Below are positions 19,910 to 60,300 of a DNA stretch of 64,000 nucleotides, one piece after another. The translations under genes and the position numbers were made by a program. The notes under the pieces are model-generated. The model saw only the letters and a list, made by a program, of their open reading frames with translations. It was not told where the DNA came from and searched no databases. Source of the DNA: an uncultured archaeon (GTDB lineage Archaea; Thermoplasmatota; Penumbrarchaeia; JASLWR01). How positions within the stretch are numbered: position 1 is the stretch's first letter; each line of letters starts with the position of its first letter. The DNA is taken from the NCBI GenBank assembly GCA_964342815.1, contig CAYFHS010000006.1:1-64000 (forward strand), read 5' to 3'.

Positions 19910-22165
19910 ATGACTGCCGATAGAAAAGAGCTGATCCGGAATAAGGTCGAAAAAGTAAAAAAGAAGCTTCCAGTCTCGGAAGATCTTATCTCACGGCTTC
20001 CACCGGCCTTTTTTGAGCTGTCGGACATCGACGATATAATCCATGATCTTAGACATCTTCCAGCAATAATCTCCCGCAAAAAGAAATTCTATAGGTACAA
20101 CTCCGACATAGAGGAATTTTCGATCATGTCCTGCGACCGTCATCGTCTGGTACGAACCCTCAATGGTTTTTACCTGAACAATCTGGCGAACACTAAGCTT
20201 TTCAGGATATATTTCGATAAAGAAAGGAAATTTGCCATAGTCGGTTCATATCATCTATTGAGTGAATCCACAAGGTCGAAGGAAAAAGATCTCGCAGAGC
20301 CAAACTGGAGCAAATTGGCAGTGACGAGTACAGAAGGAACACACAAGAGAATAGTATTCCATCCCATTGTAACGGAAAAAAAGGAAATTACTGCTGAAGT
20401 AGCCAACGTTTCGTTTCTCACTGTAATAAAAAATATCATCGAGACCATGACCCGCTTTGAATGTTCCTTTATAGAAATATGGATGAACCGGTCCTATTCA
20501 AAAAAGGTTCGAACCCTATACTCACTTCGCATACGGTATTACGATCACCTGAACGACGATGAGATCTCGGTCCTGAGTAATGAAGTAATCCATTATCTTT
20601 CTCCGTTCATACAAACCCGAAGCCTATTTTCCATAATCGGACCGGTAATGGTTGGTCCGTCCAGTTCGCACACTGCTGGAGCTGCTAAGATCGGTAACAT
20701 TGCCCGGGAAATGGTTATCTCTTTGCTTAAACAAGGAAAGATAAACAAAATCAGTTCAATAGGTGTCCGTCTTATCGGGTCGTTCCTGGAAACTGGCACC
20801 GGTCACAGCACTCCCGAGGCAGTACTGGGCGGCCTGAACGGTAATGCTGCCGACAGCCAAATGCTTCTCAAAAGAGGGGCCGAATTCATCGTAGACCCCA
20901 AGAGATCCCGCTTCAACTATCTTGGAAATAAGGTTGCCTTTTCCGGTTTTCTTCCACCTGATGAAAGTGCGGAAAAAAGATATTCGAAGGAACATAACCG
21001 GAATATAGCAGAAATACTTTTGGAGACCGATAAGGGTAATTTGAGCATCACGGGTTTCTCCATCGGAGGCGGTGAGATCGAGATAAGATATCTCAACGGA
21101 CAGAGGCTAAGCCACCCCATCGACGGGAAATCGAAAGTAGTGCTGGGCAAAAGATCATTTCCTAAAGTCACCGAACCGTTCCTGGGTATAGATGTTATAC
21201 CAATTGGAGGAAATGAGTTAAAACCGGGAAATAAACACGAATTCCTGCTGGATTTTAACACTTTCGAGGAGATGATGGAAATATTCGGTCACGGGATCAA
21301 GGGGGCCCGGCTCGTCAGGCGTATACTTGACGCCGAAAAGGGTATCAGCGGTATTGAGATAGACGATGCTATCAAGAAAGGACAGCAAATCTGGGAAGTG
21401 ATGTCTGAAAGTATGAAAATCGTTGATGAACGTGAGAAAAATGCCATTTTCAAGATCTGCGGTGGTGATTCGGACCTGCTTCGCAAATATGTCTCTCCCG
21501 GGAATCTGTTCGGAGAAAATCTCTACACCATGGCTTTGAAATATTCGCTGTCTGTAATAGAGAAGAATGCCCTCCACGGTCTCATCGTTGCCTGCCCCAC
21601 CGCAGGTTCCTGCGGTATTCTTCCCGCGGTCCTCCGATCATGGGAGGATCTCGCGGTCGGCGGCGGCAACGAAAAAAAGGAAAAAATAATAGGAGCTCTC
21701 GTGACATCCGGTTTCCTTGGAATGTTATTTTATGACGTGGTTCCAACAGCGGGAGCGACCTACGGCTGTCAGGCAGAGATAGGAGCAGGAGCCGCAATGG
21801 CGGCCAGCGCTCTGACCTTTTTACAGGATGGAAACCTCGAAGAGATCATACATGCCTTCACCCTTGCTATAAAGAACAGCATGGGGCTCACGTGCGATCC
21901 CGTATCGGGCCTTGTGGAGGTTCCGTGCATCAAGCGAAATGGGATTTTCACCTCCCTTGCCATATCCTCATCACTGATGGCGCTTTCCGGTGTACGATCG
22001 GTAATATCGCCTGACGAGGTCATTCTTGCTGTTAAAGAAGTGGGGGAGAAGATGAGCGATGATTTCAAGGAAACGGCCCGAGGCGGCCTTGCGGTTACCC
22101 GGGACGCACGTAAGATTGAAAAGATGATGGACGAGTACAATATCAAAAGGTATCAATACACGTGA
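19910..22165 (+). CDS. sdaA: Fe-S L-serine dehydratase, fused beta+alpha chains, with ~230 aa N-terminal extension
   Basis: IIGPVMVGPSSSHTAG (beta); IVACPTAGSCGILP, GCQAEIG, GLTCDPVSGLVEVPCIKRN (alpha). Confidence 0.9.
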   Translation: MTADRKELIRNKVEKVKKKLPVSEDLISRLPPAFFELSDIDDIIHDLRHLPAIISRKKKFYRYNSDIEEFSIMSCDRHRLVRTLNGFYLNNLANTKLFRIYFDKERKFAIVGSYHLLSESTRSKEKDLAEPNWSKLAVTSTEGTHKRIVFHPIVTEKKEITAEVANVSFLTVIKNIIETMTRFECSFIEIWMNRSYSKKVRTLYSLRIRYYDHLNDDEISVLSNEVIHYLSPFIQTRSLFSIIGPVMVGPSSSHTAGAAKIGNIAREMVISLLKQGKINKISSIGVRLIGSFLETGTGHSTPEAVLGGLNGNAADSQMLLKRGAEFIVDPKRSRFNYLGNKVAFSGFLPPDESAEKRYSKEHNRNIAEILLETDKGNLSITGFSIGGGEIEIRYLNGQRLSHPIDGKSKVVLGKRSFPKVTEPFLGIDVIPIGGNELKPGNKHEFLLDFNTFEEMMEIFGHGIKGARLVRRILDAEKGISGIEIDDAIKKGQQIWEVMSESMKIVDEREKNAIFKICGGDSDLLRKYVSPGNLFGENLYTMALKYSLSVIEKNALHGLIVACPTAGSCGILPAVLRSWEDLAVGGGNEKKEKIIGALVTSGFLGMLFYDVVPTAGATYGCQAEIGAGAAMAASALTFLQDGNLEEIIHAFTLAIKNSMGLTCDPVSGLVEVPCIKRNGIFTSLAISSSLMALSGVRSVISPDEVILAVKEVGEKMSDDFKETARGGLAVTRDARKIEKMMDEYNIKRYQYT

Positions 22166-22191
22166 TCCATTAACGAATCTCCCCAAAATCA

Positions 22192-22815
22192 TTATATTCT
22201 GGGTAATAAACTCAGTGAACTGCTGTTCTCGTAGGCGGAGCCCAAATGACACAGATGGTTCAATGTTTCAGAAAACAGCAGGAAAAGGGATCTGAGCCGT
22301 TCTATATCCTTGATCACCCCTACAACCTGAAAATAAAGCTCGTCAACCCCTTCGGGAAAATTTGCTCCGAACCATCCGTCATCGTCCTTCACCTGGAAAT
22401 AGACATTCGGCTGAAATTGTATCAATTCCCGGATTCTGGGATTTGCAAAAAGCATCTGAACTTTGTAGTCGTTATTTCCCTTAATTATGTAGTCATTGTC
22501 AAACTCAGGAATACCCACCTGTATGTCCTGCATCCCAAAGAACTTGCCTATTTTACCGAATATGTTCTCTCGATAAAGGGTAAAACGAAAACCGTCCTTA
22601 TTCACATAGGGAGCTCTGATCCGAGTATAGGTGGTACTGCTCTTTCCCGTTGACACCCTATAGGTATCCATGGTAACAATCCAATCTTTCACTCTGGCTG
22701 TGACAATGTCGCCTTTCCAGAATCCGCCATCCAGAAACTCGCCACCCATTTCTCTGGATAATTGCCTCCAAACCTCATCTTGGCTCGGACCGAATAATTG
22801 TCGTAACAAACCCAT
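22192..22815 (-). CDS. Conserved hypothetical protein resembling bacterial DUF3137-type proteins
   Basis: MGLLRQLFGPSQDEVWRQL...TYTRIRAPYVNKDGFRF...FPEGVDELYFQVVGVIKD recalled as a bacterial family; start moved to ATG 22815. Confidence 0.6.
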   Translation of the reverse strand: MGLLRQLFGPSQDEVWRQLSREMGGEFLDGGFWKGDIVTARVKDWIVTMDTYRVSTGKSSTTYTRIRAPYVNKDGFRFTLYRENIFGKIGKFFGMQDIQVGIPEFDNDYIIKGNNDYKVQMLFANPRIRELIQFQPNVYFQVKDDDGWFGANFPEGVDELYFQVVGVIKDIERLRSLFLLFSETLNHLCHLGSAYENSSSLSLLPRI

Positions 22816-23010
22816 TTTATTCACCACTTTATATTATTTCGTTGTTCATCAACTTTTGTTACAATCAAGGTAACTTTAATTATAATTTTCGGTTCTAATC
22901 AGTAGGGTGTATGCAAGGTAAGCAGATGCAACTATAAATGAGAGGGTATGGAGTATGGTGGTTTTTACAACTTTTTTTTATTTTAGTTTTGATATTATCT
23001 TCTCACACGG

Positions 23011-23415
23011 TTATAGGTCCGCACAATTTAGCAATGCACTTGCATTCATAATACTGATTCCTCGAAAATTTTTCAATTTTATTAAATGTTTGTCTCCGGA
23101 GATTATATGATCAACTTTGGCTTCCATGGCGCATTCTAAAAACATATTGTCAGTTGGATCTTCTTTGATTAATTCAACTTTTTCTTGGGGGATTACCATA
23201 TCGCAAACTTCAATAAGCGAAGTTACAAATTCTTCAATTTCATCTTTTGAAAACCTAAACTTTTTTCTGTTAGCGACCGCTATAAACTCCTCCAATATTT
23301 GTGGAGACATAAATAATTTGATCTCTCCCATAAATATTCTTTTAAGGAGCTGATGTTCGGATTTCTTCCAGCCAAGTGCGGAGATTAGAACATTTGTATC
23401 CACAACAATTTTCAT
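23011..23415 (-). CDS. vapC: PIN-domain toxin (VapC-like)
   Basis: MKIVVDTNVLISAL...DPTDNMFLECA...IISGDKHL; AT-rich. Confidence 0.9.
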   Translation of the reverse strand: MKIVVDTNVLISALGWKKSEHQLLKRIFMGEIKLFMSPQILEEFIAVANRKKFRFSKDEIEEFVTSLIEVCDMVIPQEKVELIKEDPTDNMFLECAMEAKVDHIISGDKHLIKLKNFRGISIMNASALLNCADL

Positions 23416-23419
23416 CCGC

Positions 23420-23680
23420 CTACCAGCCTGATCGAGATGATCCTATCTCCTTTTCCACATCTTTTTTACGTATCCCATCTTTTTCGAATCTTTCCCTCGT
23501 TTTTCTAGATAAAGATTCAAATACATCAAGAGGCGAGCGTTTTTGTTTAACAATTATCATATCATCATTATAGTAAAATTCTAAAATAGTTCCAATCTCG
23601 ATTCCACTGCTGTCCCGAATAACTTTGGGAACCGTGATTTGCCCCTGACGAGTAACAACTCCGCTGCCTGCATATCTCAT
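23420..23680 (-). CDS. AbrB/MazE/SpoVT-family antitoxin
   Basis: VTRQGQITVPKVIRDSSGIEIG; ends 4 bp before the PIN gene; start set to ATG 23680. Confidence 0.88.
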   Translation of the reverse strand: MRYAGSGVVTRQGQITVPKVIRDSSGIEIGTILEFYYNDDMIIVKQKRSPLDVFESLSRKTRERFEKDGIRKKDVEKEIGSSRSGW

Positions 23681-23818
23681 TTTGTCACCAATACTATACA
23701 TAGTATTAATAGTATTTAACTTTGTCATGTATAATCAATGAAATTTCGGGAAAACCGTTTAATACCGGCAGTATAATTTATCAAAAACTTTACTGTAAAA
23801 AATCAAGGAAGGATCATC

Positions 23819-37554: not shown

Positions 37555-38457
37555 ATGAGTAAGAAAACGAATAGCATACTGGTAGCAAGGCAACTCGACA
37601 AGATATTCGAGAAACAGGGGAATCAGGTCAAGGCCCTCAAGGGTGTGAACCTATCAATTAAAAAGGGAGAGTACATTACCCTTCAGGGTCCGTCTGGTTC
37701 GGGGAAGACGACTCTTCTGAATATTCTGGGCTGCCTTGACCGGCCCACTTCCGGGAAGGTCGTAATAGACGGTACGGACGTATCCGAGATGAGCGAAAAA
37801 GAACTGGCGAGTGTAAGGGGGAAGAAGATAGGTTTCGTGTTCCAGGCATTCAATCTCATACCAATCCTCAATGCACTCGAGAACGTGGAGCTTCCCATGG
37901 AACACAATTTGAATCTTACGAAATCCGAAAAACGTGCGAAGGCAAGGGAATTGTTGAAACTCGTGGGCCTTGCCACCAGGGAAAAACACAATCCTGAGGA
38001 GCTGAGCGCCGGAGAGCAGCAGAGAGTTGCCATTGCCCGTGCTCTCTCTAACGACCCGGCCATCATTCTCGCCGACGAGCCCACCGGTAACCTGGATTCC
38101 AAGAAGGGAAAACATATAATGAAATTATTGGGAGAGTTGAACAGAAAACTGGGGACCACCATTGTACTGGTGACTCATGACGATTCAATGGCAAGGTTAA
38201 GCAAAAAGATAGTGAAATTGAAGGATGGCAAGATCCGCAACGTAAGAGACCTTAAAGGCGAAAGAAATTCATTGGACATCTCTGACGAGCTGGAACTGTC
38301 CAAGCACATCGTGGACAAGCTCATTAATGGAGGATACGATACTCTTGCCAAAATATTGAAGCTGAAGGACCGTGATATGAAGACCATTTCAAAGATCACG
38401 AATAAGGATGTGAAGAGGATAAGGAGCAAGATCCGGGCGTACAAGCACGGGATATAG
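37555..38457 (+). CDS. LolD-type ABC ATPase with a C-terminal HhH-like extension
   Basis: GPSGSGKTT, LSAGEQQRV, DEPTGNLD; tail LSKHIVDKLINGGYDTLAKILKL...ISKITNKDVKRI. Confidence 0.9.
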   Translation: MSKKTNSILVARQLDKIFEKQGNQVKALKGVNLSIKKGEYITLQGPSGSGKTTLLNILGCLDRPTSGKVVIDGTDVSEMSEKELASVRGKKIGFVFQAFNLIPILNALENVELPMEHNLNLTKSEKRAKARELLKLVGLATREKHNPEELSAGEQQRVAIARALSNDPAIILADEPTGNLDSKKGKHIMKLLGELNRKLGTTIVLVTHDDSMARLSKKIVKLKDGKIRNVRDLKGERNSLDISDELELSKHIVDKLINGGYDTLAKILKLKDRDMKTISKITNKDVKRIRSKIRAYKHGI

Positions 38458-38477
38458 GGAGACCTGAGGCGTATAAT

Positions 38478-39869
38478 ATGGGATTATTCAGTATGGCCAC
38501 TAGAAATATTTTAAGAAAGATAAACAGAACGTTGCTGGTCTCAATGGCCCTCTGCTTTGCCATCGCTTCGATAATATCCGTCTATTCGGGTATCGAGGCC
38601 TCCAGTGCGGAAACCAAGGAGATGATCGATGAATATCAATCGTACATCGTCGATATGAGTGAACTCAGCGACGTGCAGGAGAGTATGATACAGGTCAGTG
38701 TGGGCTGGGGAGGAGGTATGGGCCACGGAGGTGGCTGGGGGGGCATGGGCGGTGGTTCCTCAGACGCAGTTAAACTAACCCAGGAGGAAATTGATATCGT
38801 GTCCTCAGTGGAATTAGTCGAGGCGGTCATTCCCAAGATCAGCAATTCGGTGGGCGAGGTGGATATGGAGCAGATAAGAGCGCAGATGAGGGCTATGAGG
38901 GAGCAGGGTGGCGGCGGTGCCTGGGGTGCCGGTGGTGGTGGTCATGGAGGCGGAGGTGGTGGTGGATTCGATAGAAATGCGATGATGGCATCATTCTATG
39001 ATTATTACGTGGAGGGAGTTCCCCTCGATTCTTCTCTGAATGAGAAATATTCGATACTTCCATCGAATATCGTTGAGGGAAGGCAACTCAACGAGAACGA
39101 TTCCGGGGTGGTTCTGATCCGGGATGAGTTGAAAAGCTTCTTCTCTGCGGGGCTAGGGAGCACGATCGACATCGAGGGACACGATTTCAGGATAGTGGGC
39201 ATCTACAACAGCTTTGTGAACCGGAACACTGTCTACATGAGTCTTCCGGACGCCCAACTGGTTGCGGGAATGGATGCAAATGAATACTCCTCCCTTGATG
39301 TGTACGTGGAAGACAAATCTCTGATCGATCTTGTGGTTTATGACATGGAGGAACAGTTGACGGATAGTTTCCGTGTAACGTCGTACGCAGAACGCAACGC
39401 CCGTTTCTCAGATCGTGTGCAACAGGCCCAGGAGGCGGAAATAGAAAGCCTCCAGGATGCCAACGACGAGGTTGAGAACTCCGGGAACGCGATCATCATC
39501 ATATCTCTCATTACTGCTGCCCTGATAGTGTTGTTCCTGATGATGTATACGGTGAAAGAGCGAACCAAGGAGATCGGCATATTCAAGGCGCTGGGATTCA
39601 CGGAGAACCGCATCATGAGCCAATTCGTATTGGAAGGAGGCATTGTCGGCTTGATAGGCGGCATATTCGGAATCGCCATCGGCTGGGCCGGCGCTCCCTT
39701 TATCGCGGAATTCTTCTTGCCGCCCACTGATGTTTATTCCACCATCGACCCGAGTATATTTTTAATCGCGGCAGGTCTGGGCTTATCGATCTTTCTGGGT
39801 GTCGTCGGGAGCATATACCCTGCCTGGAAAGCTTCCAGAAAATCTCCTGCGGAGGCGATCCGTGGGTGA
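38478..39869 (+). CDS. MacB/FtsX-type ABC permease with Gly-rich inserts
   Basis: RNILRKINRTLL, ERTKEIGIFKALG and YPAWKASRKSPAEAIR. Confidence 0.9.
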   Translation: MGLFSMATRNILRKINRTLLVSMALCFAIASIISVYSGIEASSAETKEMIDEYQSYIVDMSELSDVQESMIQVSVGWGGGMGHGGGWGGMGGGSSDAVKLTQEEIDIVSSVELVEAVIPKISNSVGEVDMEQIRAQMRAMREQGGGGAWGAGGGGHGGGGGGGFDRNAMMASFYDYYVEGVPLDSSLNEKYSILPSNIVEGRQLNENDSGVVLIRDELKSFFSAGLGSTIDIEGHDFRIVGIYNSFVNRNTVYMSLPDAQLVAGMDANEYSSLDVYVEDKSLIDLVVYDMEEQLTDSFRVTSYAERNARFSDRVQQAQEAEIESLQDANDEVENSGNAIIIISLITAALIVLFLMMYTVKERTKEIGIFKALGFTENRIMSQFVLEGGIVGLIGGIFGIAIGWAGAPFIAEFFLPPTDVYSTIDPSIFLIAAGLGLSIFLGVVGSIYPAWKASRKSPAEAIRG

Positions 39870-39931
39870 GGATTCAGTATAAAACTGGGATAATAGAACG
39901 TATCATTCATGAGATCCCGGATCAAGGCGTT

Positions 39932-40222: not shown

Positions 40223-40295
40223 AATTCATCATCCCATCTCTTTCGGTAATTTAAAATTCCGTCATAAGTTTGTTACTATCATTCCTTATTTTCCC

Positions 40296-43200
40296 CTACC
40301 GATCATCAAATTTTTTATTCATCGGCAATCTGCCAAATTCATCATCTTCAAGATCGTCTTCCGGCTTTTTTTTCATACCGAGATATATGGCAATAACAAG
40401 GAAGGCCGTCACAATCATAACCACGATCCACAAGATGTAAAGCCAAATACTCATATTTTCTTCTGAAAATATTTTATTACCGTCATCATCCGGATTCTCT
40501 TCATCATCGGTTGTTAAGTCCAGTACAAGCGGAGGTTGTGAAGTCGAATTCTTTTCGGACATTCCCGGATTCCACTTATCCGGCATACCGTCGAAGTCCG
40601 TGTCCACGGATGCCGCGGGATCATATGGAAAAGCATCTTGCTCATCGGGGACTCCATCGTTATCGGAGTCCTTTATCTTCACTATGAGGGTGTAATCGTA
40701 ATGGTCTTTTCCACCTCGCCCGTCCGAAACAGTAACGTTTACCCAATATATCCCCTCTGATAACTTTCCAGAAAGATTTCCTGTGTGTCGATCTATTTCC
40801 AGCCACATGGCATTGGTATATATAGACCAGGTCAATTTATCAGCAACGGGATCATCGTCCGTAGCATTGAACCGAACAAAATAAATCTCCCCATCCATCG
40901 CAGACATCGGAGGTGTTGTGGTGATTATGGGTGGATCGTTAATATTATAAACGGTCAGAGAATAATTATACCATCCTTTCCCACCGTTACCATCGTTCAC
41001 CAAGACCGAGAGCAGGTATTGCCCCACTTCATCGTTGGTTGGAGTCCCGTACAATTCACCCGTATCATTGTTAAAATACAACCAGGTCGAATTCGTTTTC
41101 AGGTTCCAGGTAATTGTCCCCTGCATATCATCATCGGAGCTGAAATTAACGTAATATAATTCGTCTTCAGCAGTACTTATCCTGGGCTTTGTCATGATAA
41201 AAGGAGATGTGTTTTTCACAGTTAAAGTAAAATTTTTAAAATCGAACTCTCTCTGATCAGCAGTTACAGATATATTTACCCAAAACCTTCCTACATTCTC
41301 GTTGGTTGGTATACCAAAAAGAAATCCTGTTGTCTCGTTTAGAGTTAACCATTTCGCGTTCGTATCCAGGTTCCATAAGATAGATTCATCATTATTGAAT
41401 GCAATCTCATATTCATAATCTATTCCATATGGCACATCTTCCTCGTGTGTGGTAAGATCAATGGTGGTGATTCTTAAAATTATTCTTCGTGGCGCCTCCC
41501 AGTGAAAAAACGGATAAGTAAGCCCATCATGTATCCTCCAAATTGTTGAAAAATCCCAATTTGAATCTATAAAGGTTTTCCTGCTCATCATTTGCGTGGT
41601 GTTCTTCCCTATACCGCCGTCGCTCTGGGTTTGACCCGAAGTTTCATTATCCCAAAAACAATTCAGAAAAATGCCGATATCATTATCTCCCGCAAGCCCT
41701 CCGGTATTAAATTCACCGGACACGCTGGTCGCCGTATAACAGTCCTCAACCATACCGGAGTTGAATCCAATAAGCCCACCAATAAAACTATTACCACCCA
41801 CCGAACCAATCGTATAACAGTTTTCCATCTTACCCTCGTTTGTACCAACAAGCCCGCCGATATGGGTATTTCCACTTACATTTCCAATTACACGACACCT
41901 ACTTATCAAACAATCATTACCGGAGATGCCGACAAGTCCGCCCACCCAATTATTTCCACTTACATTGATATCAATCAATGAAACATTTGATATCTTCGCA
42001 TTATTATCCAATTGGCCGAAAAGTCCTGTATAGCTGTCATCTGGAAAAGATAAATTCAGGTTGGAAATCAGGAAACCATTTCCATCGTATTCACCCCCGG
42101 AGAAAACGGGTATATGAATGCCTGGTTCTTGGGATAGATCAATATTTGATAGCTGTCTGAAATTATAATCCAGTAATGCAAAGGGAAGTATGCATTTCAG
42201 ATCGGATACGGACGAAACATTATAGCTGACAGTCCCCGGGATCTTATTCAGGTAATCATCTATATATATTACCATATCCTGGGATATCCAATCATTAAAT
42301 TGCGGGTTTAAAATACCATATGGCGTGGGGTGTTTCTTTCCGTTTATAGTTGATTGATCGATGCAATAGAATGAATTTTTCACTTGTGTGAATGAATATG
42401 TATATCCAACAAGCCCACCAACAAAATCACCTTTTCCACTCACGTTACTCTTTGCATAGCAGTTTTTTACCGTTCCGGATGTTTGGAATCCGATAAGCCC
42501 GCCAATGAAACTTTGGTTACCTGTAACGGTTCCAAATGATTTGCATTTCTTAACATCCCCCCAACTGTTTCCCACAAAACCCCCGACCCTTTTATTTCCA
42601 TGTACATCGCCAGTCGCAGAACAATTATCAACAATGTTGTCGCAATCACCCACAAGTCCTCCCACAGACAATTTCCCGTATATATTGTTAGAAGCCGAGC
42701 TGTTCTCTATCAGACCGTGATAATTCCTTCCTACTAGGCCCCCGACGTTCTCATATGCTTCCACCGATCCTGCAGCCGAGCAATTTGTGATTATACCTAG
42801 ATTCTTTCCAACCAATCCCCCGACGTTATAATCTCCCTTCACATTACCAGTTATGCTAGAGCCATTTATCCGGCCAAGATTGTTTCCAACAAGCCCGCCG
42901 AGGTTGTTTTTTCCAGTGATATTTGCGTCCACAAGATTAATGTTACTTAATAATCCGTTGCTTTCCATGTAGCCGAAAAGGCCAAGGTTAATGTCGGTGC
43001 GGTTGATGAATATACCCGTAATATTATATCCTTGGCCATCGAGACTGCCATTGAAGCGGCCATAGAATTTGCCGATTGGATCAAATCCAATACCATCGTT
43101 CCAATATCGTGTTGAATTGGCATTTATATCGCATACGAGTATATAATGTGCATGTCTGTCACGGCTTATATTCTGGAGAAGTGACACATTGGAGATTCGG

Positions 43201-43391
43201 TAGGGATTGCTTTCCGAGCCGTTTCCTCTTCTAAAAAGTGTATCAACAATCACATTATTTCCGTCAGTGTGTGTCGAGTAATTTTTCATTATTATTTTCT
43301 TTTTGATAATATTCGAAGTTGGAAAGATAATTATTGAATTCCCGACAAGCAGAAGGCACACTACCATTATCGCCGTGGTCTTAGGATACAT
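40296..43391 (-). CDS. Surface protein with GLUG-like repeats, cadherin/He_PIG-like domains, DxDxDG motif and C-terminal TM
   Basis: Repeated VGGLVG.N.G; WL...TG.L.GTP; DSDNDGVPDEQDAFP; TM WLYILWIVVMIVTAFLVIAIYLG. Confidence 0.88.
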   Translation of the reverse strand: MYPKTTAIMVVCLLLVGNSIIIFPTSNIIKKKIIMKNYSTHTDGNNVIVDTLFRRGNGSESNPYRISNVSLLQNISRDRHAHYILVCDINANSTRYWNDGIGFDPIGKFYGRFNGSLDGQGYNITGIFINRTDINLGLFGYMESNGLLSNINLVDANITGKNNLGGLVGNNLGRINGSSITGNVKGDYNVGGLVGKNLGIITNCSAAGSVEAYENVGGLVGRNYHGLIENSSASNNIYGKLSVGGLVGDCDNIVDNCSATGDVHGNKRVGGFVGNSWGDVKKCKSFGTVTGNQSFIGGLIGFQTSGTVKNCYAKSNVSGKGDFVGGLVGYTYSFTQVKNSFYCIDQSTINGKKHPTPYGILNPQFNDWISQDMVIYIDDYLNKIPGTVSYNVSSVSDLKCILPFALLDYNFRQLSNIDLSQEPGIHIPVFSGGEYDGNGFLISNLNLSFPDDSYTGLFGQLDNNAKISNVSLIDINVSGNNWVGGLVGISGNDCLISRCRVIGNVSGNTHIGGLVGTNEGKMENCYTIGSVGGNSFIGGLIGFNSGMVEDCYTATSVSGEFNTGGLAGDNDIGIFLNCFWDNETSGQTQSDGGIGKNTTQMMSRKTFIDSNWDFSTIWRIHDGLTYPFFHWEAPRRIILRITTIDLTTHEEDVPYGIDYEYEIAFNNDESILWNLDTNAKWLTLNETTGFLFGIPTNENVGRFWVNISVTADQREFDFKNFTLTVKNTSPFIMTKPRISTAEDELYYVNFSSDDDMQGTITWNLKTNSTWLYFNNDTGELYGTPTNDEVGQYLLSVLVNDGNGGKGWYNYSLTVYNINDPPIITTTPPMSAMDGEIYFVRFNATDDDPVADKLTWSIYTNAMWLEIDRHTGNLSGKLSEGIYWVNVTVSDGRGGKDHYDYTLIVKIKDSDNDGVPDEQDAFPYDPAASVDTDFDGMPDKWNPGMSEKNSTSQPPLVLDLTTDDEENPDDDGNKIFSEENMSIWLYILWIVVMIVTAFLVIAIYLGMKKKPEDDLEDDEFGRLPMNKKFDDR

Positions 43392-43702
43392 GATCGCTCT
43401 CCAGCATCAGTGGTCAAGTATAATTATCTAACTTCTTTCTATAAATCACATCTCCCTTTATTTTAATAAATCTATTGATGTAAATTGAAAAGCTTATGAC
43501 TGGGAATAAATTACATGAATTTGCAGACCTCTCAGGCGGTAATTCCAGATTTTCGGAGTAACGCAGTTTTCCATTTAGATTCTCATTCGTTGGATTCACA
43601 CCATGGAACTACGGATTGTTATTGTGTATCATTCCTTATATATGATTAAATCCATGTTCACTATAAGAGGGGGATTTACTGTTGAGGAAATGGTGAATCC
43701 AA

Positions 43703-53983: not shown

Positions 53984-54853
53984 TCAGAGTTCTAAGAGGT
54001 CGTCGTACATTTCCGGCCGTCTGTCCCTGAAGAACTGCCATATGTTTCGCACCTCGTCGATCATGTCGAAATCCAGAGCGGCTGCAATGATCTCATCCTT
54101 GTCTCTGCTTCCTTCAGCAACAATCTGGCCTCGGGGGTCGCAGAAATAACTGGTACCGTAGAATTCACCGATGTTCCATGGTGCTTCAAATCCCACTCTG
54201 TTTATGGCACCGACGAAATACCCGTTGGCCACAGCATGGGCAGGCTGTTCCAGTTTCCAAAGATACTCGGAAAGTCCGGCAACTGTAGCAGAGGGGTTGA
54301 AAATAATCTCCGCTCCGTTCAATGCCAGTGCCCTTGCTCCTTCAGGGAAATGACGGTCGTAGCAGATGTATACCCCTACGTCAGCATATTCGGTCTCGAA
54401 CACTGGATACCCAAAATTCCCAGGTCGGAAATAATACTTTTCGAAAAATCCAGGCAGTACATGTGGTATGTGTGTCTTTCGATATTTTCCAAGGTAGGTT
54501 CCGTCGGCATCGATAACCGCGGCGGTATTATAATAGAAACCTGACATTTCCTTTTCATAAATAGGAACTATGAGGACCATGTGGTGCTTCTCTGCTAGAT
54601 CCATCATGGCTTCCGTGGTGGGACCGTCGGGTATCGGTTCTGCCATGTCATACCATTTTGGTCTCTGTTCGGCGGCGAAATAGGGCCCGTTGAACAGTTC
54701 CTGGAGACATAGTATCTTCACGCCCTTGGATGCGGCTTCTCCTATCAATTTCACATGCTTTTCCATCATGTAGCTCTTTATCTCGTCTACGGGAAGGTCG
54801 GTAGAAATATCGGCCTTGGCCTGTATCAATCCACATTTTACTATTCTTGACAT
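53984..54853 (-). CDS. Nitrilase-fold beta-ureidopropionase
   Basis: LQELF, KYRKTHIP, ICYDRHFPEGAR (E-K-C triad); probable start ATG 54853 (MSRIVKCGLIQ). Confidence 0.88.
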   Translation of the reverse strand: MSRIVKCGLIQAKADISTDLPVDEIKSYMMEKHVKLIGEAASKGVKILCLQELFNGPYFAAEQRPKWYDMAEPIPDGPTTEAMMDLAEKHHMVLIVPIYEKEMSGFYYNTAAVIDADGTYLGKYRKTHIPHVLPGFFEKYYFRPGNFGYPVFETEYADVGVYICYDRHFPEGARALALNGAEIIFNPSATVAGLSEYLWKLEQPAHAVANGYFVGAINRVGFEAPWNIGEFYGTSYFCDPRGQIVAEGSRDKDEIIAAALDFDMIDEVRNIWQFFRDRRPEMYDDLLEL

Positions 54854-54999
54854 GTTATTCACCATTTTATATATATTCGGCAATGTCGATATTGATGGAA
54901 ATATGCCAATCTTATTTAAATTATTAATATATCATATACTTACTTGGACAAATTTCATACGGTATTGTTGAATCCAATGTTAAAGGCAGGGAGCTTCTG

Positions 55000-55788
55000 A
55001 TGGATTACGCGGAAAAAATCCGAAAAGCCATTGAATGGATCGTCGGATCGAACCGTCTTGTGATATTCACCGGCGCAGGGGTAAGTACGGAGTCTGGCCT
55101 CCCGGATTACCGCGGTCCCCATGGGGTATGGACCAGAAGGGACAAGGGATTGGCTCCGCCGAAGTCCAAAAACATGGATGAGGTCCATCCCAATCGGACC
55201 CATTATTCCCTGGTCGAGCTTTTGGGATTGGGGAAACTCAATTTTCTCATATCCCAGAACGTGGACAACCTGCATCTTGCTTCCGGAATACCCCCGGATA
55301 TGATCGCCGAGCTGCATGGAAATCACGCGTTGATGAAGTGCATGGATTGCGACCATCGCCTATCTTTCAGCAAAGCAGGATGGGATAAAGGTACCTGGGG
55401 ACAGGGGTATCGTACGCAAAAATCACGCTTGGGACAACCCCAATGTCCGAGGTGCAGCGGCCGGCTAATATCCAGTGTGGTGAATTTTGGAGACCCCATG
55501 CCTGAAAAAGAGATTTCCATATCAATGGAAAGGTCGAGAACCTGCGACGTCTTTATTGTCATTGGCTCTTCTCTAGTTGTTAGTCCGGCAGCTAATATGC
55601 CTGCACTGGCTCTCGAGAACGGCGCGAAATTGATCATTATTAATCAGGGTGAGACTCCTTACGACCACTTGGCCGAATTAAGGTTCTGGGAGAACGCCGG
55701 CTCTGTGATGGAAGATATAGTCAATGGATTGAAGAGAATTGTTCAGCAAAAGAGCAAATCCTATAATGTCAATAGAGCGAACAAGTAA
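55000..55788 (+). CDS. cobB: NAD-dependent deacylase (sirtuin), SIRT6/7-like sequence pattern
   Basis: GAGVSTESGLPDYRGPHGVWT, SQNVDNLH, ELHGN, two CxxC, GSSL, IIN. Confidence 0.9.
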   Translation: MDYAEKIRKAIEWIVGSNRLVIFTGAGVSTESGLPDYRGPHGVWTRRDKGLAPPKSKNMDEVHPNRTHYSLVELLGLGKLNFLISQNVDNLHLASGIPPDMIAELHGNHALMKCMDCDHRLSFSKAGWDKGTWGQGYRTQKSRLGQPQCPRCSGRLISSVVNFGDPMPEKEISISMERSRTCDVFIVIGSSLVVSPAANMPALALENGAKLIIINQGETPYDHLAELRFWENAGSVMEDIVNGLKRIVQQKSKSYNVNRANK

Positions 55789-55795
55789 AGAAAAT

Positions 55796-55875
55796 AAAGA
55801 GGGCCGATGACCCCCAAGGCAAACATCGGCCCGATAGAAAAATAATAATATCAAGCATACAGAGGAAGAGGGCCT
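55796..55875 (-). repeat. Left copy of an inverted structured element
   Basis: gggccgatg-acccccaaggcaaa-catcggccc plus an A-rich linker and agagga; homologous to the reverse complement of 57055-57129. Confidence 0.65.
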
Positions 55876-56256
55876 GGTGCCCTCAGGGTCGGTGTGAGCC
55901 GACCTTATTTGTGCGAATAATATTGGTGAAACACTATTTGACGAGGCAGATGTTCCGCTAGAGCCACATCAGTCTTGAAATCTATTAGGCTAAATGAAAA
56001 GGCAGTTCCCCATCAAATCCTTTTCGAGGTTCGCCTGTTTGACAATATCCAAGAGAAAAGCACTTTGGCGTACCCAGATATGAATATATCGTACATAGCA
56101 GAATGAAATGAGTGGATGGCTGTTCAACGACAGACTAGTGAATTCCTTTTGACACTGTGGCGAGTTTATTTGAATACCACGTTTTACGAAATCAATAGTT
56201 ATAGTCCTAAGAATTTAAGTAACATAATCCAATATAAAGAAATTGAGGGGTATATT

Positions 56257-56838
56257 ATGTCACTCGTTACAATAGTATTTATTATTTTGTTGCTTATATT
56301 AAATGCTTGTCTAATAGGATTAATAATCTATTTTTGGAAAAATTTATCAGTCATAAAAGCAGAAAATAAAACACTTAAGGATAACCAATGGGAAATAAAG
56401 CAAGAATTTGAAAAAAATAAACTGATCGAAATTGAAAGAATAAAACAAACATGGGATGCTCAAAAACAAAATGAAATTGCGAACATAGTTGCACAGACAA
56501 GACAAGATACAAGCAATCGTTCAAGAGCAGCATTAAAAGGTAGAATTGGAGAACAAATGGCTCCACTAATGACAGAATTTTATTCGAAATACGAGTTATC
56601 TGATGCAAGGTTTATTGGAGAACCAATAGATTATATAATCTTTAAGAATTTATCTAAATACAAGTCCGAGAGAGAAAACAAAATTCCCCCGGACCAACGT
56701 TCACAAATTGAGATTATAATTGCTGACGTAAAGACTGGTAAAGCATATCTTAGTCAAGAACAAAGAAGAATTCGAGATGCTATATTATGTAAAAGAGTAA
56801 ATTGGGATATAATTCGTTTAACAATACCAGACGATTAA
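56257..56838 (+). CDS. Membrane-anchored Holliday-junction-resolvase-like PD-(D/E)xK endonuclease (Endonuc_Holl-type)
   Basis: TM plus coiled coil; SR...GRIGEQMAP, DARFIGEPIDYIIF, DVKTG..LSQEQRRI. GAGGGG RBS before ATG 56257. AT-rich (16/60 and 18/60 GC in two sampled lines). Confidence 0.85.
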   Translation: MSLVTIVFIILLLILNACLIGLIIYFWKNLSVIKAENKTLKDNQWEIKQEFEKNKLIEIERIKQTWDAQKQNEIANIVAQTRQDTSNRSRAALKGRIGEQMAPLMTEFYSKYELSDARFIGEPIDYIIFKNLSKYKSERENKIPPDQRSQIEIIIADVKTGKAYLSQEQRRIRDAILCKRVNWDIIRLTIPDD

Positions 56839-57054
56839 AATGTGAGTACAGTTAACTAACAATTATTTGCCCATTGACTTCACGTAACTCTCTTGGCTTC
56901 TGAAGTTTCCGAGGGGCCGTTGCATCTCGGATTCAACGGAGTAAAAAGGGCACACTTGCCGATACTGAAAACTTCCTTTCTGGAACGTTTTTGTATTTTC
57001 TCACAGCTATGCTCGAAAATAACACAGGGGCAATGCCCCGGAGCGGAGTTAGCG

Positions 57055-57129
57055 CCACCCCTCCTCTATCTTTTCGATATTATTTTTGGGTCAGGCCTGC
57101 GTTGGCCTTAGGGGCCGCAGGCCCTTTTT
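57055..57129 (+). repeat. Right copy of an inverted structured element, ending in hairpin plus T5
   Basis: ggcctgcg-ttggccttaggggc-cgcaggcc-c-ttttt. Confidence 0.65.
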
Positions 57130-57300
57130 GGATAAGAAGAAAGAGATTATAAAAACAAAAGCGGTGAAAGTAATCCACCAATATATTTATCCATAAGATG
57201 TATTATAGTTGTCAATATTTCCGTTAGCTTTATTATAGAAAAAAGACGATGTTATTCAAAGTACAAATTTCAAGTTTTATACCTCTAGAACGGTGATCAC

Positions 57301-60300
57301 ATGTTCGGTTCTCTGAAAAGGTCTCTTAATGTCTTTATACTTGTCCTTATGATAACCAGCAGTTCTTATCATTTTTCCTTCCCGACCGATGATGGAGATA
57401 CTTTTTATAACGGTAAAATACGCAGGGTCGACTTAGATATCGATACCTCCCAGGAATCAACTAGGGCTGAATTGTCTCAGATACTACTAACCGAAACTTT
57501 CGAATCCAATTCTTTTGCAACAAATGGATGGGCCAAGGAGGACGGCAGCGGCGGGGTCGAGATAGTCACCACCAACCCGAAGAATGGTACACGACACCTG
57601 CATTTCAAAGGAAACAGCTATAATACACACGGCTATATTTCAAAGGTTTTGAACCTGTCCGCTTATTCCCAAGCAGTCCTGGAATTCGAAGCCTACGGGG
57701 GGCCTAGCAGCGGTGGAGGTATAGACGGACCGGGAGGAAGCGAGGACATTCTCTGGGTGGATTTTCGTTCGTCGGCAACCAGCCAATGGACCACTTTAAA
57801 CTACTGGCATGGAGCTAACTGCAGCCTAAACCAGTACCGCTTCGAAAGAGTGACCCTACCTTCTTCGTCGTTTACGAACACCAGTGCAATTCGATTTAGA
57901 AACAAGATAAGTGTGAATAGCGAGTATTATCGCATTGACGATATTAAGGTAAAAGCAGCACCGCAGTTGGAAATTAATACTGATAACATCGCAGCTACTC
58001 CATCCTCGATATTGAGATACAATGGGACTATTAATATAAGCGGATCGTTCACGGATGACGTTGGTTTCGGGATATTGGATTATAAAATATCAATCGGAAT
58101 AAGGGATCCGGAGGGAAAAGAGACTCTATTGATAGATAACAAAACAAGCGGGAACGATTCTCTGAATATTCAACAACAGTCGCCAGGTGAATTTAATTTT
58201 TTCTACATCTGGTCCCCTTCGGAGAATTTTCTTTTCGGTAAATACGATATCAATATTAAGGTCTACCACAGACTCGGATGGAAATGTCTGCTTAGTTATG
58301 ACGATAATGATTGTAACTTCACACTTTTATCCGTAGCTCCTTACTTTCGGAATGAGTCTATCTTTTTCGAAAAAGAACCTCTAAACGCTCTGGACCCGGA
58401 TGGGATTCCAATTACAATAAAATTCCATGATGTTGATCGCCAATCCCCCGATGACTTTTTCATGAATCTGACCCTACGAGGAACGGAGAACAATATTACT
58501 ATATTCAAAAGTGCAACAAACGTGTCCGGGCTGAATATTTCAATGACGGAAAACGGGACCTACGAAGCAGCCCACGTATGGTATCCGGAAAATCCGGATG
58601 ATTTGGTCGAGGGGAGATACAGCGTTGACCTTGGTTTGTGGGAGGAAGGCGGACCGTTGGTAGAGATGGAAATCTTTAATATCGAAAGAAACGTCACTCT
58701 GGTAAAGAGATATGTTCCAGGGATAATATCACTGGCGTGTCAACCGGACACTATCAATATGAGCGGTTCCGGGAAAACCACGATACAGGGTGAGTTTTTC
58801 GATAAGGACACGAGCTCCATGATGGATTTCGAAATATCACTGAAGATAAGGGATGGAGATGATAAGGAGATAATTCTTACAGATGGGGCAAAGAGCGGCG
58901 AGAATGGTGTAATCATCGAGAAATCGGGAATATTCAGGTGGCGTATTACTTTTGCATATGATCCCCCGGTGACCCTTCGTCCGGGACCCTATGATCTTTA
59001 TATGGATGTATTCGACGGTGAATCAACCCTCACTAGTGAAGGGTTTAATAACAATACCGATGAGCTGTTTATTTACAACAACACCAGTCCAATAATCCAT
59101 GAGATCACACTCAGCAGATCGGTAGTGAACAAATACGGCAATGATTCCGCAAGGCTGAGCATCATCTTTTCAGATCCAGATGGCGAATCCATGGGTAATT
59201 TCACCATCAATCTGACCCTAATTGACTCGGAGGGCAATTTATATACACTGGTGAACGGTGAAAAGGAAGGCCCCAATGCAAGCATATCGTATCTGGCCCC
59301 CATAGACGGTCACAGTTACGTATTCACGTTTGATATCGACCCAGATACTTCGTTTACGGAGGGCCCGTACGGACTGTCTTTCAATGTCCGGGACAAATGG
59401 GGTGGTATTGATGGATTGGCTTACGGTGAGAACGACCTGAACCTTACTTTCTTCTACAATTATATACCGTCCCCTCCATCGAAAATTTGGCCCAACAGCA
59501 CCACCGATAAGCTTCCATTGATAAGCTGGTGGGGGGCATTGGACCTGGAAACACCCCACGAAGAGCTCGAGTATTCTATAAGGATCGGAACCGCCGGAGT
59601 TGACGATAATATCCTGGCCTGGCACGATGTAGGCCAGCGAACGACCTATCAGGTAATGGAAGAACTTGAGGTAGGTTTTTACCATATCCAGGTAAAGAGT
59701 TATGACGGTGATTTTTACTCCGAAGTTTCCAGCTCCATCATGACCATTGCCCCTGATGGCAATCACCCTCCAGGGGTGCCTGGTGCCATCAGTCCGCTTT
59801 ACACCGTCCGTCGAGATCCCACCATCACCTGGGATGCCAGTATTGACCGGGATGTCAACGATCTTATCGAGTACTTCATAAGCATTGGAACGGACTGGCA
59901 TGCCAGTGATATCATAAAGAGCACACCCACCAGTGTGAACACGATCTACCAGCTACCGTTCATGCTGTCCTACGGCACATATTACGTTCAGGTTATGGCC
60001 ACCGACGGATACGAATTTTCCCCTGTCAGGGAACAGCGGATGATCATCTTCGATCCGTCAGATAACATAGCTCCGTTCCCGCCCAAATCTATTATGCCGG
60101 ATGTGACCCGGAACCCATACCCATTGATCCAGTGGGAAGGCGCCGTGGACCTGAACGGCGACGACCTTCTTTTCTGGTTCAGGATAGGCAGCGGCCCCGG
60201 CCAGGGGGATATTATACCTTGGAGTAGCACGGGGAAGAGCAATTATTTCCAGATCGAGAAGTCAATGGCCCCCGGGGATTATTATGTCCAGGTAAAATGT

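What the first reader, a model, noticed from the sequence alone, without database searches (positions are those of the whole stretch)
55796..57129. AT-rich endonuclease gene bracketed by two inverted, covarying structured elements: a possible new mobile or invertible cassette
Seen: the reverse complement of 55796-55875 aligns with 57055-57129. Left(-): ccctcttcctct...gatattattattttt-ctatc-gggccGATG-tttgccttgggggt-CATCggccc-tcttt. Right(+): ccctcctct...gatattattttt-gggtc-aggccTGCG-ttggccttaggggc-CGCAggccc-ttttt. The 4-bp GATG/CATC to TGCG/CGCA swap is fully compensatory, the 14-nt loop is 11/14 identical, and a G-C to G-U change favours the outward-reading strands. Weaker similarity and the same hairpin order continue inward for about 100-170 nt. 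Between them is a ~28-30% GC (sampled) TM-anchored PD-(D/E)xK nuclease gene, against 37/60 GC in a sampled sirtuin line. Inference: structured recombination ends of a non-autonomous cassette, an invertible segment, or two copies of an unknown ncRNA. No transposase or exact target duplication was found.
Basis: partly seen in the sequence, partly recalled or inferred. Interest (0 to 1): 0.75.

Follow-up and report, generated by a model that had tools for sequence, protein, structure and literature searches.

The report
Dispersed archaeal hairpin repeats bracketing nuclease
The two "ends" are ordinary copies of a hairpin repeat scattered about 40 to 55 times through this marine archaeon's genome. 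They bracket a recently acquired AT-rich nuclease gene in a hairpin-outward arrangement that recurs around other accessory genes, so the repeat family, not the nuclease, is the thing of interest.

Summary
The inverted repeat is real: about 72 nt, local score 25 against 8.2±1.5 in shuffles, with a compensatory stem swap. The claimed weaker similarity further inward is not significant. The two copies are not private ends of a nuclease cassette. A covariance model finds about 40 copies in this archaeal genome, 18 and 9 in two relatives, and none in 34 other genomes of the class. All 40 are intergenic. The left and right copies are 66% identical, which is the family average.

A full unit is a roughly 190-240 nt module: a REP-like hairpin D, an A-rich tract, two GC hairpins, a T-rich tract, and REP-like hairpin C. 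It folds like a REPIN and has the layout of a bidirectional terminator.

The gene between the copies is an intact PF10107 Hjc-like nuclease with GC3 of 20%, absent from relatives. The whole 1444-bp block is replaced by 133 unrelated bases in the sister species.

Hairpin-outward pairs are enriched (4 within 3.5 kb, 0.3 expected) and enclose other accessory genes. The best reading is a new REP/MITE-like repeat family delimiting accessory gene blocks. Transcriptional insulation is the main rival. I found no transposase, target duplication, inversion or excision.

The parts
55743..55800 (-). Outer tail of the left module. It also supplies the last 15 codons and the stop codon of the sirtuin gene, and it marks the left edge of the block missing in the sister species.
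   Evidence: Homology to G003 ends at 55742. G003's sirtuin ends 13 codons earlier. A purine-rich tail follows hairpin C in many copies.
55801..55832 (-). Left hairpin C, a REP-like hairpin. It has a 9-bp stem GGGCCGATG/CATCGGCCC, a TTT bulge, an inner stem GCC/GGT and loop TTGGG.
   Evidence: (94.3 bits)
55833..55867 (-). T-rich tract of the left module, read on the minus strand.
   Evidence: 31 of 40 copies are at least 50% T here
55868..55904 (-). Family-typical GC hairpins B (55868-55884) and A (55887-55904, the GGTCGG..CCGACC type).
   Evidence: A-type hairpin upstream in 23 of 40 copies
55934..55974 (-). Degenerate inner hairpin D of the left module, with the tag CCTCGTC. It still carries GATG..CATC, which matches this copy's hairpin C.
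   Evidence: the D type is GAGGCCTGCG..CGCAGGCCTCGTCTACGAC in other copies
56257..56838 (+). The cargo gene, encoding a 193-aa protein. It has an N-terminal hydrophobic helix, a K/E/Q-rich region that looks like a coiled coil (by eye, not tested), and a PF10107 (COG4741) Hjc-like PD-(D/E)xK nuclease domain. E99, D125 and K159 are conserved.
56905..57059 (+). Inner part of the right module. It holds a GTTGCAT..CAAC hairpin (about 56911-56960) that resembles an insert nested in other copies, and a B-like hairpin GGGGCaatGCCCC at 57027-57039.
   Evidence: (C23 copy)
57060..57093 (+). T-rich tract of the right module.
57094..57124 (+). Right hairpin C. It has the stem GGCCTGCG/CGCAGGCC (the family's majority stem), a TTG bulge, an inner stem GCC/GGC and loop TTAGG.
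   Evidence: (86.2 bits)
57125..57186 (+). Outer tail of the right module and the right edge of the block missing in the sister species.
   Evidence: homology to G003 resumes at 57187

Best explanation
Shown:
- The two elements are two average members of a dispersed, lineage-restricted family of structured intergenic repeats in an uncultured marine archaeon.
- A full unit is about 190-240 nt. It runs: REP-like hairpin D (its complement carries a GTAG tag), an A-rich tract, GC hairpins A and B, a T-rich tract, REP-like hairpin C, and a short purine-rich tail.
- D and C are inverted copies of each other, so the unit can fold into one long hairpin, as a REPIN does. Its core (A-tract, hairpins, T-tract) has the layout of a bidirectional terminator.
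- At this locus two units lie with hairpin C pointing outward, around a foreign AT-rich gene for a membrane-anchored Hjc-like nuclease.
- The whole 1444-bp block (55743-57186) is an accessory segment that the sister species lacks.

Inferred:
- The units are insertion-prone, MITE/REP-like DNA.
- Inverted pairs of them delimit accessory transcription units. This could arise because foreign DNA is captured between inverted partners, or because a pair can be moved in trans as a composite.
- As a side effect the outward-facing T-tracts and hairpins would stop transcripts that leave the AT-rich island.

The elements are not nuclease-specific recombination ends, and the segment is not an invertible switch.
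For: Family membership:
- The covariance model built from 3 copies finds 40 hits at E<0.1 in the genome, 18 in G003, 9 in G001 and 0 in G002.
- Only 3 of 37 genomes of the class have it.
- All 40 copies are intergenic.

Structure is under selection:
- 97.5% of cells are paired, 8 of 12 pairs show changes on both sides, and slid controls reach at most 60%.

Module anatomy and fold.

Indels:
- A G003-specific insert of about 485 bp is exactly one module, placed 3-5 nt after a stop codon. G000 has the empty site.
- The window block is 1444 bp, against 133 unrelated bp in G003.

Pairs:
- Four hairpin-outward (-,+) pairs lie within 3.5 kb, against 0.30 expected. P(>=3) is 0.002.
- Six of seven adjacent pairs within 7 kb are (-,+).
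- The five gene-carrying pairs hold the nuclease, an FGE-like protein, a vWA/HTH protein, a 1533-aa ORF and a 3-ORF unit.
- Three pair loci (this one, C19, C1:118k) were compared with G003. The cargo is missing at that place in all three.

Foreign origin of the cargo:
- GC3 is 20%, against 51-56% in the neighbours.
- The nuclease is absent from the 3 family relatives.
- Its nearest homologues are only 54-59% identical and sit in unrelated contigs.
Against: - No transposase partner was found. G000 (88.9% complete) has no Y1 (PF01797) or TnpB (PF07282) match. The IS200-type genes in G003 and G001 are not flanked by these hairpins.
- There is no target-site duplication at either indel.
- The window event is a replacement, not a clean insertion.
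- The left and right copies are no more alike than random family members, so nothing shows the block moved as one piece.
- Gene-sized indels are common between the two species: about 6 in 57 kb, and 5 of them lack these elements.
- Five modules sit at orthologous sites in both species, which suits a retained function as well as it suits old insertions.
- Copy number is modest for a REP or MITE family.
Confidence: 0.5

Rival explanations
1. RNA-level function only. The modules are bidirectional transcription terminators or 3'-end stabilisers that happen to be sequence-related. The hairpin-outward pair insulates the neighbours (the sirtuin, from antisense reads; the surface-protein gene, from read-through) against transcripts that start inside the AT-rich foreign gene. 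The modules play no part in moving DNA.
For: - The core is an A-tract, two GC hairpins and a T-tract of about 25 nt. Oligo-T is the archaeal termination signal (established knowledge; the layout is).
- G-U pairs (13 G-U against 9 G-C at one pair) and the one-sided T bulge show a fold specific to the outward strand, as expected for RNA.
- Of 40 copies, 33 face at least one gene's 3' end, and in 22 of 40 a convergent gene lies next to hairpin C, usually 4-45 nt away.
- Five modules are kept at orthologous sites in the sister species, with hairpins A and B and the T-tract well conserved.
- An outward orientation is what insulation of a transcriptionally noisy island predicts, whichever way the cargo points.
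Against: - About 40-55 copies serve roughly 1% of genes, so this is not the organism's general terminator.
- Nine or more loci share an identical 28-nt hairpin and the loops fall into subfamilies. Independent terminators would not show this.
- Seven of 40 copies lie between divergent genes, and the spread over classes of intergenic region is close to random.
- There is a clean module-sized indel with an empty site, and there are nested inserts inside hairpin loops.
- The family is absent from 34 of 37 genomes in the class.
Confidence: 0.3
2. Chance juxtaposition. Two independent insertions of a common repeat happen to lie on either side of a separately acquired gene.
For: The ends are not specially related: 66% identity against a family mean of 64.7%, and R ranks 14th of 39 among L's partners. 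Gene-sized indels are frequent in this region.
Against: The expected number of (-,+) pairs within 3.5 kb is 0.30 and 4 were observed. Orientation is (-,+) in 6 of 7 adjacent pairs within 7 kb. The edges of the indel coincide with the outer ends of both modules.
Confidence: 0.1
3. A REPtron-like system. The Hjc-like nuclease flanked by inverted family hairpins is the enzyme that cuts or mobilises the hairpin family, as a functional analogue of a RAYT flanked by its REPs. It would act on cruciforms extruded by the palindromes.
For: The arrangement REP-gene-REP in inverted orientation mirrors that of RAYT genes (PMC3733652, PMC2817692). Holliday-junction resolvases cut four-way or cruciform DNA (established knowledge). 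The genome that carries the nuclease has the most copies: 40, against 18, 9 and 0. The catalytic residues are intact.
Against: - G003 and G001 carry the family without the nuclease.
- Four other pairs enclose unrelated cargo.
- The protein has an N-terminal membrane anchor, and the family is annotated as a predicted secreted nuclease (PMC3424549).
- Homologues elsewhere have no such repeats.
- The gene looks recently imported.
Confidence: 0.05
4. An invertible segment: a DNA switch that flips by recombination between the inverted copies.
For: The only support is the presence of inverted repeats 1.2 kb apart.
Against: The arms are only 66-73% identical, and no recombinase gene lies in or beside the block. 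Contigs from four marine runs of four studies show only the one orientation and no joints, though contigs would miss rare forms. Nine contigs that carry the gene all have the same arrangement.
Confidence: 0.02

Closest known systems
Bacterial REP / BIME / REPIN elements (with RAYT transposases)
   Same: Both are short GC-rich imperfect palindromes with a bulge, confined to intergenic DNA, and they often lie just past stop codons. In both, the stems covary and subfamilies exist. Units occur as inverted doublets that fold into one long hairpin, one hairpin type has a GTAG tag next to its stem, and DNA can sit between dimer partners (PMC3733652, PMC3116915).
   Different: The host here is archaeal and there are only about 40-55 copies. 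No RAYT was found: G000 has no Y1 gene, and the relatives' Y1 genes are IS200-type and are not flanked by the hairpins. The GTAG tag is on hairpin D only. The unit carries two extra hairpins and A/T tracts. Partners can lie kilobases apart with genes between them.
MITEs and MITE-bounded composite cassettes (for example integron mobilisation units, and Correia elements with terminator activity). This comparison is from general knowledge and was not checked against papers here.
   Same: Both are non-autonomous, about 100-250 nt long with inverted termini. Both show presence/absence differences between close genomes with an empty site. In both, pairs bracket a passenger gene. Some MITEs act as terminators.
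   Different: No target-site duplication was seen, no parent IS with matching ends was found, and the two ends of the pair are no more alike than unrelated family members.
Bidirectional intrinsic terminators
   Same: Both have an A-tract, GC hairpin(s) and a T-tract. Both lie between convergent or tandem genes.
   Different: Here the sequence is repeated between loci, down to identical 28-mers, and the module carries extra flanking REP-like hairpins. The family is restricted to one lineage and shows indels. Archaeal termination is not known to need hairpins (established knowledge).
Integron attC sites / gene cassettes
   Same: Both are imperfect hairpins with a conserved base, a variable upper stem and loop, extrahelical bases on one strand and strand-specific folding. 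Both border single accessory genes.
   Different: These copies are dispersed rather than arrayed and are inverted rather than direct. No integrase or attI lies nearby, and no integron integrase was searched for or found.
IS200/IS605 ends and their miniature derivatives (PATEs). The PATE comparison is from general knowledge.
   Same: Both have subterminal hairpins set back some tens of nt from the element's edge, no target duplication, and strand-specific structure.
   Different: The two ends of an IS200/IS605 element fold on the same strand, whereas here the hairpins are inverted. G000 has no TnpA or TnpB.

Membership tests
REP/REPIN-RAYT system | Short GC-rich palindromes, repeated and confined to extragenic DNA | tested here: met
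   40 covariance-model hits, all intergenic. About 50 family-like hairpins were found by regex.
REP/REPIN-RAYT system | Conserved unpaired GTAG (or CGTC) tag at one end of the palindrome | tested here: inconclusive
   Hairpin D carries ..CCTCGTCTACGAC, whose complement is GTCGTAGACGAGG.., in about 15 copies. Hairpin C has no such tag.
REP/REPIN-RAYT system | Inverted doublets (REPINs) that form one long hairpin | tested here: met
   In the C2:326315-326510 unit, D pairs with C at -85.8 kcal/mol. (-,+) pairs are enriched.
REP/REPIN-RAYT system | A cognate RAYT (Y1 HUH transposase) gene, itself flanked by the REPs | tested here: not met
   G000 has no PF01797 match. G003 and G001 have IS200-type Y1 genes without flanking family hairpins. 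G000 is 88.9% complete, so absence is not proven.
MITE | Terminal inverted repeats on a short non-coding unit | tested here: met
   Hairpins D and C are inverted copies at the two ends of units of about 190 nt.
MITE | Target-site duplication flanking insertions | tested here: not met
   None is seen at the G003 insert against the G000 empty site, nor at the edges of the window block.
MITE | A related autonomous IS with the same ends | tested here: not met
   No Y1 or TnpB in G000. Other transposase families were not searched.
Rfam ncRNA families | Match to a curated covariance model at its gathering score | tested here: not met
   0 matches in the 64-kb window.
PF10107 / COG4741 Hjc-like nuclease (the cargo gene) | Profile match above the curated cut-off, and PD-(D/E)xK catalytic residues | tested here: met
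   89.1 bits against a cut-off of 23.8. E99, D125 and K159 are invariant in 11 relatives.
Invertible DNA switch | Inverted repeats plus a site-specific recombinase, and both orientations present in populations | tested here: not met
   No recombinase ORF lies nearby. Only one orientation appears in contigs of 4 runs, and contigs cannot exclude rare forms.
Integron cassette / attC | Direct-oriented attC sites in an array next to intI and attI | tested here: not met
   The copies are dispersed and the pairs are inverted. intI was not searched for.

The most novel reading that the evidence does not exclude
A previously undescribed archaeal system in which inverted pairs of REP-like hairpin modules act as the borders of gene-sized accessory cassettes. 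The cassettes would be captured or mobilised by a structure-specific enzyme that is not a known transposase. Candidates are a host factor or, less likely, the Hjc-like nuclease itself. In this reading hairpin C behaves as an exchangeable mini-cassette, which would explain why it swaps subfamily at orthologous sites.
Probability: 0.15. Interest if true: 0.8.

Novelty: new variant of a known kind. Interest (0 to 1): 0.5.

Why it matters
REP/REPIN-type repeats and their enzymes are well studied in bacteria but barely described in archaea. Here an uncultured marine archaeal lineage carries a young, structured repeat family with clear covariation, module-sized indels and nested insertions. The family also has a significant tendency to sit as outward-facing pairs around accessory genes, and no recognisable transposase accompanies it. 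If the pairs really delimit or move gene blocks, this would be a new route of gene flux in archaea. If the modules are terminators, they would be a rare case of hairpin-based, copy-and-paste transcription insulators in archaea. For annotation, the practical point is that the nuclease locus is not a special mobile element with private ends.

Tried and rejected
- Rfam at gathering scores on the whole window: no match.
- tRNA/tmRNA scans: none in the window. The genome has no tmRNA, and its SRP RNA is archaeal.
- Strict loop pattern over about 186,000 species genomes: 10 hits, all in high-GC bacteria, about the number I estimate by chance from the 19 fixed bases. Over JGI metagenomes: 2 chance hits.
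- Close homologues of the nuclease: three contigs at 54-59% identity, with no family elements and no convincing flanking inverted repeats.
- Other nuclease searches: no viral relatives, no PADLOC or NCBIfam family, and no PDB sequence relative.
- Public runs: no RNA holder is listed.
- Contigs of four DNA runs laid on 54800-58000: the same arrangement, with no joints, loose ends or variants. Contigs cannot exclude rare forms.
- Y1 transposase and TnpB: not found in G000. The Y1 genes of G003 and G001 lack flanking family hairpins.
- BLAST of the inner arms and of G003's 133-bp filler against the genome: no other copies.
- Protein atlas look-up, meant to place the organism: uninformative. The taxon below 'archaeon' was not determined.
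- K-turn reading of the 3-nt bulge: rejected by eye, because no G-A pairs follow the bulge.
Full report
**Observation**

The sirtuin gene (55000-55788, +) is followed by a 1.5-kb stretch, and then a 1654-aa surface-protein gene starts at 57301. The reverse complement of 55792-55868 matches 57060-57133. The repeat finder reports arms of 52 nt at 73% and 26 nt at 77% complementarity. A local alignment of the terminal parts scores 25, against 8.2±1.5 (maximum 18) for shuffles.

Each copy ends in a hairpin with four features. There is a 9-bp (left) or 8-bp (right) outer stem, and a 3-nt T-rich bulge on the 5' side. There is a 3-bp inner stem GCC/GG(T/C) and a 5-nt loop. A T-run follows on the outward-reading strand.

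The claimed weaker similarity further inward is not significant: score 11 against 9.9±1.4, reached by 146 of 500 shuffles.

**The gene between the copies**

The gene at 56257-56838 encodes a 193-aa protein. It has an N-terminal hydrophobic helix and a PF10107 domain, described as an endonuclease related to the archaeal Holliday junction resolvase (E 3.5e-25). E99, D125 and K159 are invariant among 11 relatives. The family, COG4741, is catalogued as a predicted secreted Hjc-like nuclease in which archaeal sequences nest among bacterial ones (PMC3424549).

The gene is 30.1% GC with GC3 of 20%. Its neighbours have GC3 of 51-56%.

**The elements are not private to this locus**

The strict loop pattern occurs a third time in the genome, at C34:6736-6812. 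A covariance model built from the three copies finds 40 hits at E<0.1 in this 4.35-Mb assembly, which is 88.9% complete. It finds 18 in the same-genus genome G003, 9 in G001 and none in G002. At E<=1e-4 only these 3 of the 37 genomes in the class have any hit. Only the two copies of the finding lie in the 64-kb window. The organism is an archaeon: its SRP RNA scores 163 bits on the archaeal model and it has no tmRNA. It is marine, since identical contigs come from ocean metagenomes.

All 40 copies are intergenic. On 28 copies from three genomes the hairpin is 97.5% paired. Eight of 12 pairs show changes on both sides (36 cells), while partners slid by 1-3 columns reach at most 60% pairing. This alignment was fitted to the model, which favours pairing. 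One inner pair is G-U in 13 copies and G-C in 9. Together with the one-sided bulge, this places the fold on the outward-reading strand.

The left and right copies are 66% identical over the 77-nt unit. That equals the family mean of 64.7±7.3%. R ranks 14th of 39 among L's partners, and L ranks 26th of 39 among R's. The compensatory swap therefore reflects covariation across the family, not a matched pair of ends.

**Anatomy of the family**

Printing the copies in register shows a larger module. In order it holds:
- hairpin D, which is an inverted copy of hairpin C, typically ..GAGGCCTGCG-loop-CGCAGGCCTCGTCTACGAC, so its complement carries GTAG next to the stem;
- an A-rich tract of about 25 nt;
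- hairpin A, of the type GGTCGG..CCGACC, present upstream in 23 of 40 copies;
- hairpin B, of the type GAGGGC..GCCCTC;
- a T-rich tract, at least 50% T in 31 of 40 copies;
- hairpin C;
- a short purine-rich tail.

Hairpin C falls into subfamilies with identical loops. One 28-mer recurs at 9 or more loci. In a well-preserved unit (C2:326315-326510) D pairs with C into one long hairpin of -85.8 kcal/mol, with A and B at its tip.

The left arm of the finding (55743 to about 55975, minus strand) is such a full unit. Its D is degenerate but still carries GATG..CATC. The right arm holds a B-like hairpin, the T-tract, hairpin C and the tail. It also holds a GTTGCAT..CAAC hairpin resembling inserts nested inside the hairpin loops of other copies.

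**Comparison with relatives**

The window from 2152 to 59462 is colinear with G003 contig C114. At this locus homology runs up to 55742 and resumes at 57187. The 1444-bp block is replaced by 133 unrelated bases in G003, where the sirtuin is followed directly by the surface-protein gene. The block edges lie about 50-55 nt outside each hairpin C, at the outer ends of the two modules. The block also supplies the last 15 codons of the sirtuin, which is 13 codons longer than G003's.

The nuclease is not found in any of the three family relatives. Its closest homologues are 54-59% identical. They sit in unrelated contigs of 28%, 39% and 55% GC, with no family elements. In the 39% and 55% GC contigs the gene is again AT-rich relative to the rest of the contig.

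This evidence needs tempering. About six gene-sized indels separate the two species in this 57 kb, and only this one has the elements.

**Are the modules themselves insertion-prone?**

I took G003 loci centred on family hits and compared them with G000 by BLAST.
- Two modules are at orthologous sites with both flanks conserved.
- Three are conserved together with only the flank on the hairpin-C side. Synteny ends 20-45 nt upstream of the T-tract.
- One G003 module, about 485 bp, sits 3-5 nt after a TGA stop where G000 has a clean empty site. It has a roughly 230-nt insert nested in the loop of hairpin D, and no target duplication.

At all five orthologous sites hairpins A and B and the T-tract are well conserved. 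The inner stem and loop of hairpin C, however, have switched to another subfamily. That looks like replacement or gene conversion rather than point divergence.

**Pairs**

Among the 40 hits there are four adjacent pairs within 3.5 kb, and all are (-,+), meaning hairpin C points outward. Random placement gives 0.30 such pairs. No simulation in 20,000 reached 4, and P(>=3) is 0.002. Within 7 kb, six of seven adjacent pairs are (-,+).

One pair is cargo-free, with a 14-nt gap. The others enclose:
- the nuclease;
- a low-GC FGE-sulfatase-like membrane protein, again with about 1.23 kb between the arms;
- an 884-aa vWA/HTH protein;
- a 1533-aa ORF;
- a three-ORF unit.

Cargo points in either direction. 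Besides this locus, the FGE and vWA pair loci were compared with G003. In both the cargo is missing at that place, and G003 homology resumes just outside hairpin C.

**Interpretation**

It is shown that the two elements are ordinary members of a young, lineage-restricted family of structured repeats. It is also shown that the block is an accessory, foreign-looking segment, and that hairpin-outward pairs around accessory transcription units recur here.

My best reading (confidence about 0.5) is that these are REP/REPIN- or MITE-like insertion-prone modules, and that inverted pairs of them delimit accessory gene blocks. The mechanism is inferred. DNA may be captured between inverted partners, as described for REP dimers (PMC3733652), or a pair may be moved in trans as a composite.

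The main rival (about 0.3) is a purely RNA-level role. The core of A-tract, hairpins and T-tract is the layout of a bidirectional terminator. The fold is strand-specific, and outward orientation is what insulating neighbours from a noisy AT-rich island would require. The two readings are not exclusive.

Several things count against the mobility reading:
- No transposase was found. G000 has no Y1 or TnpB, and the relatives' IS200-type genes are not flanked by the hairpins.
- There is no target duplication.
- The ends are not matched.
- The window event is a replacement rather than a clean insertion.

An invertible switch is unsupported. The arms are diverged, there is no recombinase, and only one orientation appears in contigs from four studies.

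A REPtron-like role for the nuclease is conceivable but unlikely. Relatives have the family without the gene, other pairs carry other cargo, and the protein has a predicted membrane anchor.

**Novelty**

There is no Rfam family for these elements, and they occur nowhere outside two genera in the collections searched. The kind of element is known: REP/BIME/REPIN repeats, MITEs and composite MITE cassettes, and bidirectional terminators. Several defining features of each are not met, as the membership table shows. I therefore file it as a new variant of a known kind. Interest is moderate, and it attaches to the family and its pairing behaviour rather than to the nuclease locus itself.

Noticed in passing
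G003 loci L036, L038, L040, L044, L048 against G000 C34:6736, C5:102647, C2:14589, C11:109174, C13:34138: At all five orthologous module sites the flanking hairpins and the T-tract are conserved. The inner stem and loop of hairpin C, however, have switched to a different subfamily, sometimes one found at another locus in the other species. This looks like replacement or gene conversion of a mini-cassette of about 20-25 nt.
   Followed up: partly
window 57187-57250: This 64-nt intergenic stretch upstream of the 1654-aa surface-protein gene is 98% identical to G003, while the adjacent coding DNA is 78-86% identical. It holds two 24-nt direct repeats 30 nt apart (57185-57208 and 57215-57238), each ending in TTATTATAG. 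It is probably a promoter or regulator site.
   Followed up: no
window 55743-55788: The sirtuin's last 15 codons and its stop codon lie inside the accessory block. The G003 orthologue ends 13 codons earlier, so the insertion or replacement rewrote the C-terminus.
   Followed up: partly
L046 about 1640-1890 (G003:C114); G000:C23:38252-38384; window about 56911-56960: A second repeat type, CGAGGG..GTTGCAT-loop-ATGCAAC..GGGCGCAGG, is found nested inside the loops of hairpins C and D. A relative of it lies in the right arm of the window block.
   Followed up: no
G000:C19:32381 region and C10:1486 region (L054 about 1886-2126): A further repeat of about 270 nt is 99% identical between two contigs of G000. 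Many partial copies occur in G003 and G001, next to family modules.
   Followed up: no
window 22146-23743, 37608-39929, 40230-43577; G003:C114 47269-49369, 69285-70326: These are other gene-sized indels between the window and the sister species. None is flanked by the hairpin family.
   Followed up: partly
G003 C65:2976-3338, C158:39095-39454; G001 C1:9184-9543: IS200-type Y1 transposase genes are present in the two relatives that carry the hairpin family and absent from the relative that lacks it (G002). None was found in G000, which has the most copies. With only four genomes this pattern carries little weight.
   Followed up: partly
L064 784-1476, L065 188-802: Homologues of the nuclease in unrelated contigs are also markedly AT-rich relative to their surroundings (33% against 41.5%, and 39% against 58%). 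This suggests the gene family is repeatedly transferred from low-GC donors.
   Followed up: no
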